Part shown: one piece after another, positions 4,883-9,882 of the stretch
How positions within the stretch are numbered: the stretch's first letter is position 1
Layout of the letters: each line of letters opens with the position of its first letter
From: a virus
Lineage: Duplodnaviria; Heunggongvirae; Uroviricota; Caudoviricetes
Virus record (IMG/VR): IMGVR_UViG_2850756110_000008
Reading direction: 5' to 3' (one strand)
Length of the DNA: 12,650 nucleotides
Notes under the pieces: model-generated
Database searches by the model: none
Told to the model about the DNA's origin: nothing
Seen by the model: the letters and a program-made list of their open reading frames with translations, nothing else
Made by a program: the position numbers and the translations under genes

Positions 4883-5445
4883 CCCCTGAATCCTGCCGGG
4901 ATCTGGCTGTAGTCCACGTTGTCGTAACTGGCTTTGAAGTACGGGTCTTCACGTTTTTCTGTGTGCGTGCTGACGGACGGCGATAAGCGCAGGGAAAGCT
5001 CATCCCATTTTTCCCGCAACTTCGACGGGCTGAGCACGTTACGGCACCAGAACGGATCGCGGCTGACGCGGCTGTACATCTCGCAGATTTGTTTGTGAGT
5101 ACGGCCATCCTGTACACACATCAGGCGAATTTCGTTTGCCCAGGCTGTCCAGTTCGGTTCTTTGGGACGAACCACCTCGCCGTCACATTCGGCAGCCTGC
5201 TCGTACAGGGCGATGATTTTTTTCCAGAGCCACTGTGCGCAGGTCAAATCATCCTGCGTCCCCCACTGGCGCTTTTTAGGGCTGAATACAACCGCATCAG
5301 GATGGCGAGTTAAAAAATCCTGTTCAGCCGTCTGCGTGTCCGGTTGCGAAGCGTCCGGACGAGAAGGTTTTTTATCTGACGGATCATGTTTTGATTTTAC
5401 TGACGGATCCCCGCCAGATTCTGACGGGTGAAAACCCGCTTTTTT
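4879..5445 (-). CDS. Phage early/nin-region protein, 5'-truncated by IS66-family insertion (function unknown)
   Basis: The ORF runs open up to and into the IS66 terminal repeat (the track's TTG start at 5460 is inside IS sequence). Translation is protein-like (…CAQWLWKKIIALYEQAAECDGEVV…). First gene of the coupled operon. Confidence 0.5.
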   Translation of the reverse strand, partial: KKAGFHPSESGGDPSVKSKHDPSDKKPSRPDASQPDTQTAEQDFLTRHPDAVVFSPKKRQWGTQDDLTCAQWLWKKIIALYEQAAECDGEVVRPKEPNWTAWANEIRLMCVQDGRTHKQICEMYSRVSRDPFWCRNVLSPSKLREKWDELSLRLSPSVSTHTEKREDPYFKASYDNVDYSQIPAGFRG

Positions 5446-5482
5446 GTAAGCGTGCAGCAAGAACCGTATTGACGGGGATGTG

Positions 5483-7021
5483 TTATTCAGTCGGCAGTGC
5501 TACGCGCCAGGGGAGCAGTTCGCCGACCCGGTTTATCGGCCAGTCGGCTATGACGTCAAGGACATAGCGGAGGTAGCTTTCTGGCTCCACTCCGTTCAGT
5601 TTGCACGTCCCGATCAGGCTGTACAGCAGCGCTCCCCGCTCTCCTCCATGATCCGAACCGAAGAACAGGTAGTTTTTGCGGCCCAGACTGACCATCCGCA
5701 ACGCATTTTCAGCGATGTTATTGTCCGCCTCAGCCCAGCCATCATCTGCATAGTACGTCAGCGCCGGCCACTGGTTCAGGGCGTATGCGAACGCTTTCGC
5801 CAGTTCTGAGTGTCGCGACAGGGTTTTCATCTTTTCACGCAGCCAGCTTTCCAGGGATTTCAGCAGCGGTTTCGTTTTCAACTGACGTTCGGCAAGGCGC
5901 TGCTCCGCCGTCATTCCCCTTATCTCTGCCTCGATGGCGTACAGTTCGCCGATCCGTTTCAGCGCTTCCTCCGTCAGGGCTGACGGGGTGCGAACGTGCA
6001 CATCGTGGATTTTACGGCGGGCGTGAGCCCAACAGGCGGCTTCCGTTATCCGGCCATCCCGGTACAGCTCGTTGAACCCGGCGTATGCATCCGCCTGCAG
6101 TACACCACTGAACCCCGCAAGATGGGTCTGCGGATGGATGCCTTTTCTGTCCGGGCTGTAAGCGAACCACACCGCCGGCGCCAGCGTTGACCCGGCGTTA
6201 CGGTCGTCACGAACGTAGGTCCATAACCGCCCGGTCTTCGTTTTCTTATTGCCTGGCAACAGCACCGGGACAGGCGTGTCATCAGCATGGAGCTTACCGT
6301 CAGTCAGCACATAGTCCTGAAGCGCTTCTTCCAGCGGTGACAGTAGCCGGCAGCATGCATCCACCCAGCCCGACAGCAGTGAACGACTCAGCTCCACGCC
6401 CTGGCGGCCGTACATTTCAGACTGGCGGTACAGCGGGGTGTGCTCTGCATACTTTGAGATCAGCACGCGGGCCAGCAGCCCCGGTCCTGCGATACCCCGC
6501 TCGATGGGCCGTGAAGGCGCGGGGGCCTGCACGATGGCATCGCACTGAGTACAGGCATGCTTTTCACGTACAGTCCGGATAACCCGGAAGACGCTGCGCA
6601 TCAACTCCAGCTGTTCGGCGGCATCCTCACCCGGATAGCTCAGTGAGCCTCCACATTCCGGGCAGCATGACGCTGCCGGCAGCAGCCGTTTTTCATCGCG
6701 GGGGAGTGATTCGGGGAACGGTTTGCGGGTGCGGGTTTGACGCAGCGGGCGCTGCACGGCCGGGTCGTCAACCCGACCGGTAAGGGTATCACTTTCTTTC
6801 TGAAGTGCCTTCAGGTCAGCTTCCATCTGTGCGATACGACGGGAGACTTTTTCGGAGCGGCTGCCGAAGTTCATCCGGCGCAGCTTATCCAGCTGTGCCT
6901 GCAGATGGTCTATTTCGCGTTCACGCTCGTTCAGCTTTTCCAGCAGGGCACGGTTCAGCGCCTCCTGTTCGGCAAGGAGACGTTTCAGTGCATTGATATC
7001 GTCAGGAAGTGAGCTGCTCAT
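5483..7021 (-). CDS. IS66-family transposase (TnpC/orf3)
   Basis: 512 aa with N-terminal coiled-coil/leucine zipper, CxxC...CxxC zinc finger (CPECGG...CTQC) and conserved LHADDTPV and TGRLWTY motifs. Confidence 0.9.
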
Positions 7022-7069: not shown

Positions 7070-7417
7070 TTACAACATAGTCAGGGACGTAAGCAGTCTT
7101 TTAGGCTGCCGCCAGTCGATACCTTCAAGGAGCATCGCCAGCTGTGCCGGTGTGAGGAACACTTTGCCATCCCGGGCTGACGGCCAGGCGAAGCGGCCGC
7201 GCTCCAGCCGTTTGGTCAGCAGACACAGTCCATCGCCGGTAGACCAGAGGAGCTTTACCTGACTGCCATTACGCCCACGGAAGATAAAAACGTGACCTGA
7301 CATCGGATCGTCTTTCAGCGTCGTCTGCACCTTTGCCGCCAGGCCGTTGAAGCCATTTCTCATATCGGTGATACCGGCAACCAGCCAAATTTTGGTCCCG
7401 GAAGGTAACGGGATCAT
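7070..7417 (-). CDS. IS66 Orf2 (TnpB) accessory protein
   Basis: 115-aa protein (…LVAGITDMRNGFNGLAAKVQ…LWSTGDGLCLLTKRLERGRF…) typical of the IS66 orf2 family. ATGA overlap with orf1. Confidence 0.85.
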   Translation of the reverse strand: MIPLPSGTKIWLVAGITDMRNGFNGLAAKVQTTLKDDPMSGHVFIFRGRNGSQVKLLWSTGDGLCLLTKRLERGRFAWPSARDGKVFLTPAQLAMLLEGIDWRQPKRLLTSLTML

Positions 7418-7794
7418 CGCTTCAGTTCCTGTATCAGCAGAGTCAGGAGCTTTTCGCTGACATTGCCATTGAAGCGGAGCGTCCCGTGCCGGAACGTTAC
7501 CTCACAGCTGATACTGAGGGTTTCCGGATCCTCTGCGAGCGATTCTGGCTGTTCGGCAGCTGCATCGAGAGTCACAGGAAGTAGCTGGGGGCTCTCTGAA
7601 GAAGGTAATAGCAGCTTTCCCTCGCGCCATTGTTGTCGCCATTTGAACAACAGATTGGCGTTAATGCCATTTTCAAGAGCAAGTTTTGAGATGGATATCC
7701 CGGGTTCACAGGAGGCAGCAACGAGCTGCTGTTTAAATTCGGGAGGATAATTAGGGCAGCCTTTTCGCCTGCCGGGATTCACATTTTTCTGCAT
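7414..7794 (-). CDS. IS66 Orf1 (TnpA) accessory protein
   Basis: Helix-turn-helix-like small protein in the first position of the IS66 operon. ATG at 7794 (MQKNVNPGRRK…) preferred; the ORF-track start at 7815 is a GTG. Confidence 0.8.
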   Translation of the reverse strand: MQKNVNPGRRKGCPNYPPEFKQQLVAASCEPGISISKLALENGINANLLFKWRQQWREGKLLLPSSESPQLLPVTLDAAAEQPESLAEDPETLSISCEVTFRHGTLRFNGNVSEKLLTLLIQELKR

Positions 7795-7946
7795 ATCTGA
7801 CACTTTGGTTCCCACTACTTATTTGGTGGACACCACTTTGTCTAATTCGTCAGATTCTGACCAGACGGTTCAGGCTGTACGCTGATATGACTTTCCGTGT
7901 CAAACCGGAATCTCTAATTTTGACGATTTTCTTTTTAGGTTTAATT

Positions 7947-8129
7947 CCCTGAGGGCGACGTAGCAGTAAATCCGACGGTGAATCACGCTGATATTCGCGG
8001 GTTGGATACCGCATTACAGAGGTCCGTCATATGAGCCTGCCACTTTCTTACGTCGCGAATCAGCTTTGTTCCGCCGTCGCCAAGCGCTAACGTGGGTTAC
8101 TCTTGTACCGGGCTACGTCGCCTTCAGGG
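7947..8129. ncRNA. Candidate IS110-family bridge-RNA-like structured noncoding element (strand undetermined)
   Basis: An 18-bp inverted repeat (7947-7964 CCCTGAGGGCGACGTAGC; 8112-8129 GCTACGTCGCCTTCAGGG, one G/U-compatible mismatch) encloses 147 nt. Inside, ACGCTGATAT (7985-7994) is identical to the 10 nt spanning the IS66-terminus/IS110-end junction (7879-7888). Confidence 0.3.
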
Positions 8130-8148
8130 AACTGGTTATTCTCATTTT

Positions 8149-9276
8149 TTATTTGTGACATTGTGGTTGTTGTGCGACAGACATTGCTATTCGGCCCATA
8201 TCCCAGATAAAACCCGCCAGCTCACGTGCAACAGCAACAATTGTAATATTGACATTCTTTCCTTTGGCCTGAAGTTTTCGATACCTCTTACAGAGCCTGA
8301 GTTGAGCATCCCATGCTCTGTCAATGACGGGGCGGGGTAAATTTTCCTGCCTTTTTTGTATTGCCGGACTGATGCGTGCCGGATGACGGTAACTCCACGC
8401 TGCCTCGACCAATAGCTTTCTGGCATAGCTGTTTCCGGCTTTGGTAATGCTGCCCTGATGTCTGCTTCCACCCGATGAATATTCTGATGGCGTGATACCA
8501 AACCATGACATCAGTTGTCGTGGATGTTCAAAACGGGTCAGATCACCCAGTTCAGAAATTAATCCAACCGCAGTAATAAACTGAATCCCTCGCATGGCTT
8601 GCAGCGCCTCTACTACCGGATACAGCCTCCATTCGGTAACGGCCTCCTTCAGGGCGGATTCCAGCCGTTCACATTGTGCCTGCCGGTCTTCTATTGTACG
8701 ACGGTGTTCGTCAAAAGCTAATTGTCGCCAGGGACTTTCGAATGAGTATTTGCTGAGCCAGCGTCGGTGTGCAGGGCCCCAATCTGCTCGCCCGACATAA
8801 TGGACCCCATGAACCAGAAGAAACGATTTCAGACGTTGCCTTGCATGCCGTAAATCATCGCGGGCAGATGCCCATGCCCGGGCCAAATCCCGGAATGCCT
8901 CATCTTCAATGCCGGGTACGTAGACAGCAGAAAGATCTCCTGCACGCAGTGAACGCACAAGTCTGATGGCATCACGGCGATCGGTTTTAACCCGCTCCCC
9001 CGGTTTTTTCGGGATAAGTGAGGGGGCGCAGACCATGCAGTCAAAACCGGATTTCACCAGCCGACGATAAAGTCCATAACCACAGGGCCCCGCTTCATAA
9101 ACGATACTGACCTGCGATGACTTTGACCTGAGACGTTTACAAAGATTCTGAATATCAGTAGGTGATGTGCCAATTTTACCCATCAGTTCAACAGGTTCTG
9201 AATTGATAGCATAAGCGACAGTAATCGATTCTTTGTGAACATCTAACCCGACGTACAATGTGTTATTGTTGTTCAT
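8149..9276 (-). CDS. IS110-family transposase / DEDD recombinase
   Basis: 375 aa from the ATG at 9276, with GGAGG 7 nt upstream. N-terminal RuvC-like DEDD motifs (YVGLDVHK, IVYEAG, KTDRRDA) and C-terminal Tnp domain with conserved Ser (GITPSEYSSGGS). The ORF track extends the start to 9324, which lacks an RBS. Confidence 0.85.
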   Translation of the reverse strand: MNNNNTLYVGLDVHKESITVAYAINSEPVELMGKIGTSPTDIQNLCKRLRSKSSQVSIVYEAGPCGYGLYRRLVKSGFDCMVCAPSLIPKKPGERVKTDRRDAIRLVRSLRAGDLSAVYVPGIEDEAFRDLARAWASARDDLRHARQRLKSFLLVHGVHYVGRADWGPAHRRWLSKYSFESPWRQLAFDEHRRTIEDRQAQCERLESALKEAVTEWRLYPVVEALQAMRGIQFITAVGLISELGDLTRFEHPRQLMSWFGITPSEYSSGGSRHQGSITKAGNSYARKLLVEAAWSYRHPARISPAIQKRQENLPRPVIDRAWDAQLRLCKRYRKLQAKGKNVNITIVAVARELAGFIWDMGRIAMSVAQQPQCHK

Positions 9277-9426
9277 GCTGGCCTCCGTGGTGGAAATACC
9301 GGGGGGTAGCAACAGCTCACCCATGCGGCTCTGACAACGATGTTAACCCGCGTTAAATATCCCACGTTGGCCAGCATCTGTCTCACGGAAAGTCATACTG
9401 CCTTACTTTCCAATGGGCACTCATGT

Positions 9427-9882
9427 TTATACGCTGACCTTACAATCAATCACCGCTTTTAAATTTTCAGCATTGCTTCCCTGACGCTTCCACGCGCTGT
9501 AAATATCTTTATCCCACGCTTTACCAGCTTTTGTTTGATAGCCTGCTTCATTGATCCGTTCAGCTATCACACGCCCATTATCAAATCCCTGTTGGATGGT
9601 ATCGGCAATGATCTTTATAACTGCCGTTTCGTTATATGGCTTTGGTGGGATGTTCGGCTTTCCGGCAATAAGCGACGCAGCGGCTTTTTCCATGCGCTCC
9701 ACCAGCCCAAGCATTCGTGAATCAATAGACTTTTCCGGCTGTCCCAGCTTCATGCGAATCGCATCAACAAGCCAGGAGGTTTTATCCCCTCCAGAAGCGA
9801 GAACAGACCGATTAAACTCATCCTGCAATTCAGATGGGATGCGGAACGCGATCAGATTAGATTTGCTCATTGCAAAGACCAT
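9427..9882 (-). CDS. Hypothetical protein, possibly ribbon-helix-helix (Arc-like) DNA-binding at the N-terminus
   Basis: 151-aa protein-like ORF divergent from the PerC-like gene. N-terminus NLIAFRIPSELQDEFNRSVLASGGDKTSWLVDAIRMKL resembles RHH folds. A palindromic operator-like site lies 20-50 bp upstream. Stop is 30 bp from the IS110 end, so the C-terminus may be altered. Confidence 0.5.
   Translation of the reverse strand: MVFAMSKSNLIAFRIPSELQDEFNRSVLASGGDKTSWLVDAIRMKLGQPEKSIDSRMLGLVERMEKAAASLIAGKPNIPPKPYNETAVIKIIADTIQQGFDNGRVIAERINEAGYQTKAGKAWDKDIYSAWKRQGSNAENLKAVIDCKVSV

What the first reader, a model, noticed from the sequence alone, without database searches (positions are those of the whole stretch)
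7887..9396. IS110-family element with perfect 13-bp inverted repeats inserted exactly at the IS66 terminus
IS110-family recombinases insert site-specifically, guided by an element-encoded bridge RNA, and some family members target the terminal repeats of other transposons. Here the 13-bp repeat begins at the first base after the IS66 repeat (…GTACGCTGAT|ATGACTTTCCGTG…). The other flank (ACTGCCTTAC… at 9397) would then be the original IS66 flank. A second TACGCTGA-containing stretch at 9429-9436 lies just outside.
Basis: partly seen in the sequence, partly recalled or inferred. Interest (0 to 1): 0.65.

Follow-up and report, generated by a model that had tools for sequence, protein, structure and literature searches.

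The report
ISSso6 nested in an ISEc22 end
The feature is a copy of the already catalogued insertion sequence ISSso6 (IS1111 group of the IS110 family) sitting 3 bp inside the terminal repeat of an IS66-family element, a site that matches its own predicted guide RNA; this is ordinary biology for the family, with one modest new detail, a preference for IS66-family ends.

Summary
The 13-bp perfect inverted repeat is real (7887-7899 / 9384-9396), but it is subterminal, not terminal. The element is ISSso6, an IS1111-group member of the IS110 family. It is 1520 bp long and spans 7884-9403, with the 3-bp and 7-bp extensions typical of that group. Deleting 7884-9403 rebuilds a 2441-bp ISEc22 that is 2436/2441 identical to an intact copy flanked by an 8-bp target duplication. 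ISSso6 therefore lies inside the ISEc22 terminal repeat, 3 bp from its tip (TAC, 9404-9406), not at the terminus. ACTGCCT belongs to ISSso6, not to the flank. The second TACGCTGA is native DNA and a coincidence.

All 21 distinct ISSso6 sites examined share GTA|AGCG-type flanks in one orientation. Seventeen lie in IS66-family terminal repeats of at least seven sequence types; at least three do not.

The non-coding region downstream of the transposase gene folds into a conserved scaffold. Two variable blocks in one of its internal loops covary with each relative's own flanks (0 of 20,000 permutations). In ISSso6 they specify GTA|AGCGCTA.

The element and the mechanism (seekRNA / bridge RNA) are already known. 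The homing to IS66 ends appears undescribed and parallels IS4321/IS5075 in Tn21 ends.

The parts
7884..9403 (-). Complete ISSso6 (IS1111 group of the IS110 family), 1520 bp. The left end in the element's own orientation is at 9403 and the right end at 7884. Because CT occurs at both junctions (7882-7883 and 9402-9403), the boundaries can equally be written 7882-9401.
   Evidence: 99.9% identical to copies annotated ISSso6. One nucleotide differs from a S. dysenteriae plasmid copy and the protein is identical. Removing it rebuilds a 2441-bp ISEc22. Shared similarity among copies in other contexts ends at 7879-7882 and 9406-9410.
7887..7899 (.). Subterminal inverted repeat at the right end of ISSso6
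9384..9396 (.). Subterminal inverted repeat at the left end of ISSso6
7884..7886 (-). 3-bp right terminal extension (ATC in element orientation)
   Evidence: Present in all copies and all relatives. Fits the 7 bp left / 3 bp right rule for the IS1111 family (PMC11187229).
9397..9403 (-).
   Evidence: PMC11187229
8149..9276 (-). ISSso6 transposase/recombinase gene, 375 aa plus stop. Contains the DEDD residues D12, E61, D98 and D101, and the C-terminal SITKAGN motif.
   Evidence: Pfam PF01548 and PF02371. C-terminal domain matches the IS621 transposase structure 8wt6, E = 2e-5. Alignment. The first ~104 residues are identical to the ISSso6 entry in the supplement of PMC11187229.
7943..8134 (-). 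Structured non-coding region downstream of the transposase gene: the predicted long seekRNA / bridge RNA. A 21-bp closing stem encloses two sub-domains.
   Evidence: Inverted repeat I2. Single-sequence fold z = -5.25. Consensus fold of 20 relatives. 97.6% of cells paired against 34-42% when partners are slid; 11 pairs with compensatory changes against 4.3 in shuffles.
8082..8089 (-). Guide block V1, UAGCGCUU, on the 5' side of the internal loop. It pairs with the target top strand 5'-AAGCGCTA (positions -1 to +7); equivalent to a right-target guide.
   Evidence: In 21 relatives V1 is the reverse complement of each element's own flank: mean 6.3/8 against 3.1/8 for other elements' flanks.
8047..8052 (-). 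Guide block V2, CGUAAG, on the 3' side of the same loop. It is identical to the target top strand (C)GTA|AG and so pairs with the bottom strand; equivalent to a left-target guide plus core.
   Evidence: Covaries with the left flank: 5.0/8 against 3.4/8. V1 and V2 together give 0 of 20,000 permutations.
7988..7994 (-). Nearly invariant AUAUCAG (AUGUCAG in 2 of 26 relatives' sequences), equal to the right end of the element plus the AG core. A candidate donor-end guide (inference only).
   Evidence: no covariation available to test it
7898..7903 (-). TTGACA, 14 nt from the right end. After circularisation it would lie 17 nt upstream of CAGTAT in the left end, giving a candidate junction promoter (inference).
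   Evidence: Sequence. TTGACA is conserved in nearly all relatives (TTGCTA in one). Junction promoters are described for the family (PMC11187229).
5446..7883 (-). ISEc22 (IS66 family), main body: tnpC 5483-7021, tnpB 7070-7417, tnpA 7414-7815, all on the minus strand. The tnpC-side tip GTAAGCGTGCAG starts at 5446.
   Evidence: Pfam. 99.6-99.8% identical to annotated ISEc22 copies. Reconstruction.
9404..9406 (-). Last 3 bp (TAC, that is GTA of the GTAAGCG tip) of the tnpA-side terminal inverted repeat of ISEc22, cut off from the rest by ISSso6
   Evidence: Intact ISEc22 ends ...GGCTGTACGCTTAC and has the 8-bp target duplication TCTTCTCC. Native flank begins at 9406/9407.

Best explanation
Window 7884-9403 is an intact copy of ISSso6, an IS1111-group member of the IS110 family. 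It inserted without target duplication into the tnpA-side terminal inverted repeat of an ISEc22 (IS66-family) element, between GTA and AGCG of the conserved tip 5'-GTAAGCG. This left the outermost 3 bp of ISEc22 at 9404-9406.

The 13-bp repeats are the subterminal inverted repeats of the group. They are extended by 7 bp at the left end (AGGCAGT) and 3 bp at the right end (ATC).

The site was most likely chosen by an RNA transcribed from the 265-nt non-coding region downstream of the transposase gene (a seekRNA / bridge RNA). This region has a conserved scaffold in which one internal loop carries two short programmable segments. [quoted passage not shown] CGUAAG pairs with the bottom strand. 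The two overlap on an AG core that is also the first two bases of the element. Together they specify 5'-(C)GTA|AGCGCTA. The ISEc22 tip GTA|AGCGTAC matches the first eight positions, one of them through a G.U pair.

Because GTAAGCG is the shared tip of IS66-family terminal repeats, both ends of many IS66-family elements are targets.

Shown here: identity, boundaries, exact restoration of ISEc22, the shared target motif and orientation, and the guide/flank covariation. Inferred: that the RNA is made and bound by the recombinase; transposition through a circle with a junction promoter; the AUAUCAG donor guide; and that the insertion disables this end of ISEc22.
For: - Identity: 99.9% nucleotide identity to annotated ISSso6 copies. 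The protein's N-terminal ~104 residues are identical to the ISSso6 entry of PMC11187229. Pfam DEDD_Tnp_IS110 plus Transposase_20.
- Boundaries: intact ISEc22 ends ...GTACGCTTAC with a perfect 8-bp target duplication. Deleting 7884-9403 gives 2441 bp, 2436/2441 identical to it. ISSso6 copies elsewhere share exactly GAT+IR...IR+ACTGCCT.
- Family rule: 11-13 bp subterminal repeats, 7/3-bp extensions and a downstream non-coding region (PMC11187229).
- Target: 21 distinct sites all carry GTA on the left; 19 have AGCG on the right, one AGTG and one GGCG. All are in the same orientation.
- Guide: an alignment of 26 non-coding regions shows two hypervariable blocks in a conserved scaffold. Each block matches its own element's flanks, with exact 8-nt matches in 9 of 21 unique elements and 0 of 20,000 permutations reaching the observed total.
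- Structure: the two blocks face each other across an internal loop in the consensus structure, which is supported by compensatory changes and slide controls.
- Literature fit: the top-strand match lies 5' of the bottom-strand match, as reported for IS1111-type seekRNAs. The two pairings overlap on the core, as reported for bridge RNAs (PMC11208160).
Against: - No RNA, circle junction or transposition was observed; everything is comparative.
- Rfam 15 finds no family in 7800-9500.
- The guide matches the ISEc22 tip imperfectly (8 of 10, one wobble). Sites with a better match remain empty: GTAAGCGCTGGG occurs four times in one Shigella plasmid. The other ISEc22 tip in this window (5446) is also empty. 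Base pairing therefore does not by itself explain which sites are occupied.
- A donor-binding part could not be established, because the ends are invariant among relatives.
- Copies in ISEc22 ends with different outer flanks could partly reflect movement or recombination of ISEc22 carrying ISSso6 rather than separate ISSso6 insertions.
Confidence: 0.9

Rival explanations
1. One reading: an IS110-family element bounded by terminal 13-bp inverted repeats (7887-9396) inserted exactly at the outer edge of the IS66-type element, so that ACTGCCTTAC is the old flank.
For: The repeat is perfect and lies close to where similarity to ISEc22 ends.
Against: - GAT and ACTGCCT travel with every ISSso6 copy.
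- Intact ISEc22 continues ...GCT-TAC, and TAC is found at 9404-9406.
- Native DNA starts only at 9406/9407.
- Removing 7887-9396 would not rebuild ISEc22; removing 7884-9403 does.
Confidence: 0.02
2. Chance nesting: ISSso6 has no real preference for IS66 ends. In IS-rich Shigella and enteroinvasive E. coli genomes it simply survives where insertions are harmless, and any GTAAGCG-like site will do.
For: - At least three sites are in non-IS DNA.
- The motif is short, and one plasmid alone holds 37 empty GTAAGCG sites.
- Purifying selection against insertions in genes would enrich insertions in IS ends.
Against: - 17 of 21 distinct sites lie in IS66-family terminal repeats of at least seven sequence types, at both ends of such elements, always at the same position (plus a relic).
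- In the S. dysenteriae plasmid, 8 of 20 guide-compatible IS66 tips are occupied against 0 of 12 guide-compatible non-IS66 sites. The one-sided Fisher P is about 0.012 by my own hand recalculation with 8 occupied; one search gave 0.0076 with 9.
- This rival disputes only the reason for the enrichment, not the sequence-directed insertion.
Confidence: 0.3
3. Hitch-hiking: one or a few ancestral ISSso6 insertions into an IS66-family end were then spread by transposition, duplication or recombination of the composite, which inflates the apparent targeting.
For: - The same ISEc22 junction occurs with five different outer flanks.
- The S. dysenteriae plasmid has three ISSso6 copies spaced exactly 2990 bp apart, a tandem amplification.
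- The ISEc22 in the window has no target duplication, and its two flanks are never contiguous in 5426 E. coli genomes, so rearrangements at these elements are common.
Against: - At least seven different IS66-family repeat sequences, at both tnpA-side and tnpC-side ends, are occupied, which requires several independent insertions.
- With its outermost 3 bp displaced by 1.5 kb, the interrupted end is unlikely to be used efficiently by the IS66 transposase (inference).
Confidence: 0.2
4. Protein-only recognition: the recombinase reads GTAAGCG directly, and the downstream non-coding region is regulatory or a transcription terminator.
For: No RNA evidence was obtained here, and no Rfam family matched.
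Against: Recombinases that are 71-81% identical insert at quite different sequences. In each case the two variable blocks of the non-coding region match that element's own flanks. seekRNAs are essential and reprogrammable in other IS1111 members (PMC11187229).
Confidence: 0.03

Closest known systems
ISSso6 (ISfinder name; IS110 family, IS1111 group), as annotated in Shigella and enteroinvasive E. coli
   Same: It is this element: 99.9% nucleotide identity, identical protein, and the same ends in all copies.
   Different: Nothing in the element itself. No held paper describes its target, its guide segments or its habit of sitting in IS66-family ends.
[quoted passage not shown]
   Same: IS1111-type element with subterminal repeats and asymmetric extensions. 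It inserts at one position and in one orientation inside the terminal inverted repeat of another mobile element.
   Different: The host element is an insertion sequence of the IS66 family, not a Tn3-family transposon. The recognised motif is short (about 8-10 bp, the very tip GTAAGCG), so many different IS66-family members and some unrelated sites are hit.
ISEc11, ISKpn4, ISPst6 and ISPa11 with their seekRNAs (Siddiquee et al. 2024, PMC11187229)
   Same: Non-coding region downstream of the transposase gene. Two short target matches, the top-strand match 5' of the bottom-strand match, overlapping at the insertion point. Natural reprogramming among relatives.
   Different: Different target. For ISSso6 the RNA is only predicted. 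The ISSso6 recombinase is distant from ISEc11's (alignment).
IS621 bridge RNA system (Durrant et al. 2024, PMC11208160; structures 8wt6 and related entries)
   Same: DEDD recombinase with a homologous C-terminal domain. Guide segments on the two sides of an internal loop, each including a 2-nt core.
   Different: IS621 belongs to the IS110 group: its RNA is in the left end, the guide order is the reverse, and it has only 2-3-bp subterminal repeats. In ISSso6 the residue aligned with the catalytic S241 is Thr. A donor-binding loop could not be defined here.

Membership tests
IS110 family, IS1111 group | DEDD (RuvC-like) N-terminal catalytic domain | tested here: met
   PF01548, E = 2.7e-11. D12, E61, D98 and D101 lie in the conserved motifs GLDVHK, YEAG and KTDRRDA.
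IS110 family, IS1111 group | C-terminal Tnp domain (Transposase_20) with a conserved Ser/Thr-Lys-x-Gly motif | tested here: met
   PF02371, E = 8.5e-24. Matches IS621 transposase 8wt6 residues 173-266. The motif is SITKAGN, with Thr where IS621 has S241. Thr versions are common in the curated family set: ITKAG 10, ITKRG 10, ITKTG 2 against ISKRG 37.
IS110 family, IS1111 group | Subterminal inverted repeats of 11-13 bp with asymmetric extensions (7 bp left, 3 bp right) | tested here: met
   13-bp perfect repeats, AGGCAGT on the left and ATC on the right. Rule quoted from PMC11187229.
IS110 family, IS1111 group | The longer non-coding region lies downstream of the transposase gene | tested here: met
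   265 nt downstream against 127 nt upstream.
IS110 family, IS1111 group | Insertion without target duplication, at a specific sequence and in one orientation | tested here: met
   Exact restoration of ISEc22. 21 of 21 sites are GTA|AGCG-type in the same orientation.
IS110 family, IS1111 group | seekRNA / bridge RNA with a top-strand match followed by a bottom-strand match to the target, overlapping at the crossover | tested here: met
   Sequence and covariation evidence only. No Rfam model matched.
IS110 family, IS1111 group | The RNA is expressed, co-purifies with the recombinase and is required for movement; a circular intermediate forms with a junction promoter | not testable with these tools
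   Only the sequence prerequisites were seen: TTGACA in the right end, 17 nt from CAGTAT in the left end after joining.
ISSso6 (the specific element) | At least 95% nucleotide identity over the full length to the reference element | tested here: met
   99.9% to RefSeq copies annotated ISSso6. The N-terminal ~104 residues are identical to 'ISSso6' in the supplement of PMC11187229. The ISfinder record itself could not be consulted.
IS66 family (ISEc22), the host element | tnpA, tnpB and tnpC genes; terminal repeats starting GTAAGCG; 8-bp target duplication | tested here: met
   PF01527, PF05717 and PF03050 with accessory domains. 99.6-99.8% identical to annotated ISEc22. The two tips match at 23/30 positions and both start GTAAGCGT. 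The 8-bp duplication is seen in the intact copy L002 but not around the window's copy.
Transposon-end-targeting IS1111 elements (IS4321/IS5075 type) | Copies lie at one fixed position and orientation inside the terminal inverted repeat of another mobile element | tested here: met
   17 of 21 distinct sites (18 if the L004 relic is counted) lie 3 bp inside IS66-family tips. A further relic was seen. The rule is not exclusive: three sites are in unrelated DNA.

The most novel reading that the evidence does not exclude
ISSso6 carries a guide tuned to the one sequence that all IS66-family elements share, their GTAAGCG tip. It therefore homes into both ends of many different IS66-family members. 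Its occupancy of these tips exceeds what base pairing alone predicts. That would imply either an extra recognition feature of transposon ends or a real IS-on-IS relationship, in which IS66 copies serve as safe harbour and vehicle and the occupied IS66 end is disabled. This would be an insertion-sequence counterpart of IS4321/IS5075 in Tn21 ends and is not described in the papers I could search.
Probability: 0.45. Interest if true: 0.4.

Novelty: already known. Interest (0 to 1): 0.27.

Why it matters
- Annotation: it corrects the anatomy. The ends of IS1111-type elements lie 7 and 3 bp outside their inverted repeats, and the neighbouring ISEc22 is interrupted rather than merely adjacent. Its tnpA-side end is split 3 bp from the tip and is probably non-functional.
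- Biology: it gives a worked natural example of how a roughly 10-nt guide programme explains where an IS1111-type element lands. It assigns the target-binding segments for ISSso6 and for about 20 relatives in Burkholderiaceae.
- Shigella and enteroinvasive E. coli genomics: it explains why ISSso6 is so often found connected to another IS, which is also why short-read IS mappers miss it (bioRxiv 10.64898/2026.03.18.712784).
- It does not reveal a new kind of system.

Tried and rejected
- Rfam 15 scan of 7800-9500 at E <= 1: no match.
- Donor-binding guide. AUAUCAG (right end plus core) and UACUGC (complementary to left-end bases 3-8) were found. The ends are invariant in all relatives, so nothing covaries. 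UACUGC overlaps the closing stem. A third variable block (around 8026-8035, CAUAUGAC in ISSso6) matched neither flanks nor ends. I leave the donor side as inference.
- Empty site. A query made of the 300 bp left of ISEc22 joined to the 300 bp right of it found no genome where the two are contiguous. The original ISEc22 insertion site cannot be rebuilt; the right flank alone is native island DNA.
- The second TACGCTGA (9429-9436) as a second target or duplication: rejected. It lacks the GTA half, is native DNA and is at chance level.
- Thr in place of the catalytic Ser of IS621 as something unusual: rejected. Thr versions of the motif are frequent in the curated family set.
- Partridge and Hall 2003 (PMC219399) could not be read. 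It is cited only through the papers that quote it.
- Literature searches for ISSso6 or IS1111 together with IS66 gave only generic IS surveys.
- The single-sequence fold of the non-coding region differs internally from the consensus fold. I rely on the consensus, which has covariation support.
- The large protein searches, structure prediction and the metagenome scan were not used because the identification was unambiguous.
Full report
**Observation**

The sequence ATGACTTTCCGTG at 7887-7899 and its exact reverse complement at 9384-9396 are present as described. The repeat finder extends the pair by one base to 14 nt (pair I13). Between the arms lies a single long ORF on the minus strand. Read from the ATG at 9276, which follows a GGAGG, it encodes 375 aa with the two Pfam domains of IS110-family recombinases: DEDD_Tnp_IS110 and Transposase_20. 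A perfect 13-bp inverted repeat 1-2 kb apart somewhere in a 12.6-kb window is not very improbable (about 0.19 expected). One falling within the two short non-coding ends of such a gene is improbable (about 5e-4). The same repeat also recurs in relatives with only 71-81% protein identity.

**Identity of the two elements**

The stretch is 99.9% identical to copies that RefSeq annotates as 'IS110-like element ISSso6 family transposase' in enteroinvasive E. coli and in Shigella virulence plasmids. It differs by one nucleotide from a copy on a S. dysenteriae plasmid, and the protein is identical. The first ~104 residues equal the ISSso6 entry in the supplement of Siddiquee et al. 2024.

The neighbour on the left is ISEc22, an IS66-family element. 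It has tnpA (7414-7815), tnpB (7070-7417) and tnpC (5483-7021) on the minus strand.

**True boundaries**

Similarity to intact ISEc22 copies stops at 7883, three bases before the repeat. ISSso6 copies in unrelated contexts share similarity from 7879-7882 to 9406-9410, that is, beyond the repeat on both sides.

An intact ISEc22 (locus L002) is 2441 bp long. It ends ...GGCTGTACGCTTAC and is flanked by a perfect 8-bp target duplication, TCTTCTCC. In the window the same end reads ...GGCTGTACGCT [GAT-repeat ... repeat-ACTGCCT] TAC. Deleting 7884-9403 (1520 bp) gives a 2441-bp ISEc22 that is 2436/2441 identical to the intact copy.

Consequences:
- ISSso6 spans 7884-9403.
- Its 13-bp repeats are subterminal.
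- The ISEc22 tip is TAC at 9404-9406.
- CT occurs at both junctions, so the crossover can be placed anywhere within that dinucleotide.

In the element's own orientation the ends are AGGCAGT plus repeat on the left and repeat plus ATC on the right. This is exactly the '7 bp on the left and 3 bp on the right' rule for the IS1111 family, which also has 11-13-bp subterminal repeats and a long non-coding region downstream of the transposase gene (PMC11187229).

Native, IS-free DNA to the right begins at 9406/9407. It already contains TACGCTGA at the position corresponding to 9429-9436 in genomes without either IS. That second motif is a coincidence.

**Other copies**

I collected 26 copies, of which 21 are complete with distinct flank pairs. 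They came from:
- E. coli chromosomes and plasmids;
- a whole S. dysenteriae virulence plasmid (NZ_CP026809, eight complete copies and one truncated);
- S. boydii and S. sonnei plasmids.

In the element's orientation every site reads ...GTA | element | AGCG..., with one AGTG and one GGCG exception. The orientation is always the same.

Seventeen sites lie 3 bp inside terminal inverted repeats of IS66-family elements, or 18 if the L004 relic is counted. At least seven repeat sequence types are involved, at both the tnpA side and the tnpC side. A further relic of the same arrangement is present in other E. coli chromosomes, for example UMNF18; seven records show this match pattern.

Three sites are in unrelated DNA: inside sopA, in the mokC-nhaA intergenic region, and at the 3' end of a caiF/grlA-like gene.

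The S. dysenteriae plasmid also holds 37 empty GTAAGCG sites. Among guide-compatible GTAAGCG(C/T) sites, 8 of 20 IS66 tips are occupied against 0 of 12 other sites. The one-sided Fisher P is about 0.012, recalculated by hand with 8 occupied; one search gave 0.0076 with 9.

The copies do share a flanking motif and mostly sit in IS66 ends, but not always.

**Guide RNA**

The closest relatives outside Escherichia and Shigella are in Burkholderiaceae, at 71-81% protein identity. They have the same end structure: AG(G/T/A)CA.. plus repeat, and repeat plus ATC. Their right flanks start with AG or AA (GG in one), but their targets are quite different.

An alignment of 26 downstream non-coding regions shows a strongly conserved scaffold with two hypervariable blocks.
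- Block V1 (UAGCGCUU in ISSso6, window 8082-8089) is the reverse complement of each element's own target from position -1 to +7. The match is an exact 8-nt match in nine of 21 unique elements. The mean is 6.3/8 against 3.1/8 for other elements' targets.
- Block V2 (CGUAAG, window 8047-8052) repeats the last bases of the left flank plus AG, with 5.0/8 against 3.4/8.
- Taken together, none of 20,000 permutations reached the observed total.

In the consensus secondary structure the two blocks face each other across an internal loop closed by conserved helices, inside a 21-bp closing stem. The structure has 97.6% of cells paired against 34-42% when partners are slid. Eleven pairs show compensatory changes, against 4.3 in shuffles.

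Two features agree with published systems. The top-strand match lies 5' of the bottom-strand match, as reported for IS1111-type seekRNAs. The two pairings overlap on a two-base core, as described for bridge RNAs (PMC11208160).

For ISSso6 the programme reads 5'-(C)GTA|AGCGCTA. The mokC-nhaA site matches all ten positions. The ISEc22 tip GTA|AGCGTAC matches eight, one through G.U.

**How it most likely works**

By analogy with ISEc11 and IS621, the proposed sequence is:
1. The element excises as a circle joining ...GTCATATC to AGGCAGTATGAC....
2. This places a TTGACA (conserved in nearly all relatives) from the right end 17 nt upstream of CAGTAT in the left end, giving a candidate promoter.
3. 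The recombinase and the downstream RNA are then made.
4. The RNA-protein complex pairs V1 and V2 with the two strands of GTA|AGCG.
5. Strand exchange occurs at the AG core without target duplication.

These steps are inferred. What is shown is the anatomy, the restoration of the target, the shared motif and the covariation.

The nearly invariant AUAUCAG (7988-7994, minus strand) equals the right end plus core and may be a donor guide. Because the ends do not vary among relatives, this could not be tested.

Splitting the outermost GTA from the ISEc22 repeat probably disables that end of ISEc22, by analogy with IS4321/IS5075 in Tn21 repeats. This was not tested.

**Why IS66 ends**

GTAAGCG starts every IS66-family repeat seen here. 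A guide reading GTAAGCG therefore has many multi-copy, selectively neutral targets. The excess over equally well-matched non-IS sites could come from selection against insertions in genes, from spread of composites, or from an extra recognition feature. The data do not separate these.

Rearrangement around these elements is evident:
- The window's ISEc22 has no target duplication (GCTTTTTT against TTTCCAAT), and its two flanks are never contiguous in 5426 E. coli genomes.
- The Shigella plasmid has three ISSso6 copies spaced exactly 2990 bp apart.

**Comparison and novelty**

The element is a catalogued IS, its family features are textbook, and the RNA-guided mechanism was published in 2024. 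I therefore rate it as already known.

The only part I could not find in the literature is the target of ISSso6 and its habit of nesting in IS66-family ends. One preprint notes only that most missed ISSso6 insertions in S. sonnei are 'connected' to other IS. This is a further example of the IS4321/IS5075 type of behaviour, of modest interest.

**Caveats**

- The survey is a sample: the best hit per record plus one whole plasmid. It is not a census.
- The sites are not all independent events.
- The ISfinder record and Partridge and Hall 2003 could not be consulted.
- No experiment stands behind the RNA.

Noticed in passing
window 7879-7888 and 7985-7994; loci L001, L003, L097: The 10-mer ACGCTGATAT occurs twice in the window: at the ISEc22/ISSso6 junction, and 106 bp inside ISSso6, where it overlaps the conserved AUAUCAG of the non-coding region. 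Some ISSso6 copies are 1626 bp long because the 106 bp between these two repeats is tandemly duplicated. The cause could be slippage or the recombinase acting on an internal mimic of its own end junction; this is not resolved.
   Followed up: partly
window 5438-5445 and 9407-9414: The ISEc22 in the window has no 8-bp target duplication (GCTTTTTT against TTTCCAAT). Its left and right flanks are not contiguous in any of 5426 E. coli genomes. The left flank is a prophage-type helix-turn-helix gene. The right flank is an island with a hypothetical gene and a PerC-family regulator. This points to a rearrangement or deletion at this ISEc22.
   Followed up: partly
window 5446-5455 and 6158-6164: The other tip of the same ISEc22 (GTA|AGCGTGC) matches the ISSso6 guide equally well but is empty. 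A further GTAAGCG lies inside tnpC (GTAAGCGAAC) and is also empty.
   Followed up: no
loci L010-L089 (genome contigs): Outside Escherichia and Shigella, the closest relatives of the ISSso6 recombinase (71-81% identity) are all in Burkholderiaceae: Caballeronia, Paraburkholderia, Cupriavidus and Mycetohabitans, plus one Variovorax. They share the same ends and RNA scaffold but have different guide blocks and targets. Several of those targets are themselves repeated sequences, for example L074-L076 and L040-L046. This suggests transfer between bacterial classes and natural reprogramming.
   Followed up: partly
NZ_CP026809.1 127309-134808 (loci L093, pSd): Three ISSso6 copies lie exactly 2990 bp apart, each followed by an IS66-type repeat remnant. 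This is a tandem amplification of an ISSso6 plus remnant unit. A fourth copy nearby (about 138-139 kb) has only its left end within reach and lies next to an IS911.
   Followed up: no
window 8149-9276, residue T276 region (SITKAGN): The residue aligned with the catalytic Ser241 of IS621 is Thr in ISSso6 and in all its Burkholderiaceae relatives, whereas ISEc11 has Ser. Thr versions of the motif are common in the curated IS110/IS1111 protein set, so this is ordinary.
   Followed up: yes
window 9275-9283 with 9369-9377 (minus strand, 5' untranslated region): AUGCUGGCC near the left end pairs with GGCCAGCAU, which covers the transposase start codon and lies next to the GGAGG ribosome-binding site. 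The fold has z = -3.0. This is possible translational occlusion, as in many insertion sequences.
   Followed up: partly
hits H80-H98, locus L090: Many Shiga-toxin-producing E. coli carry a roughly 95.6% identical, frameshifted relative that shares only window 8069-9406. It lacks the distal non-coding region, including V2 and the right end. In L090 it abuts an IS3-family remnant. Newer RefSeq records label it 'IS110 family RNA-guided transposase'.
   Followed up: partly
locus L007 (E. coli CFSAN029787, mokC-nhaA intergenic region): This is the only site found that matches the predicted guide at all ten positions (GTA|AGCGCTA). Its next bases (AACGGGTGACC) loosely resemble IS66-type repeats (AACGGAGTGCC). 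It might be a solo repeat relic rather than truly unrelated DNA.
   Followed up: no
window 7884-8148 relative to 7414-7815: ISSso6 and ISEc22 tnpA are co-directional. Any transcription running out of the ISSso6 right end would therefore enter ISEc22 tnpA-tnpB-tnpC. At tnpC-side tips the fixed orientation would instead give antisense transcription.
   Followed up: no
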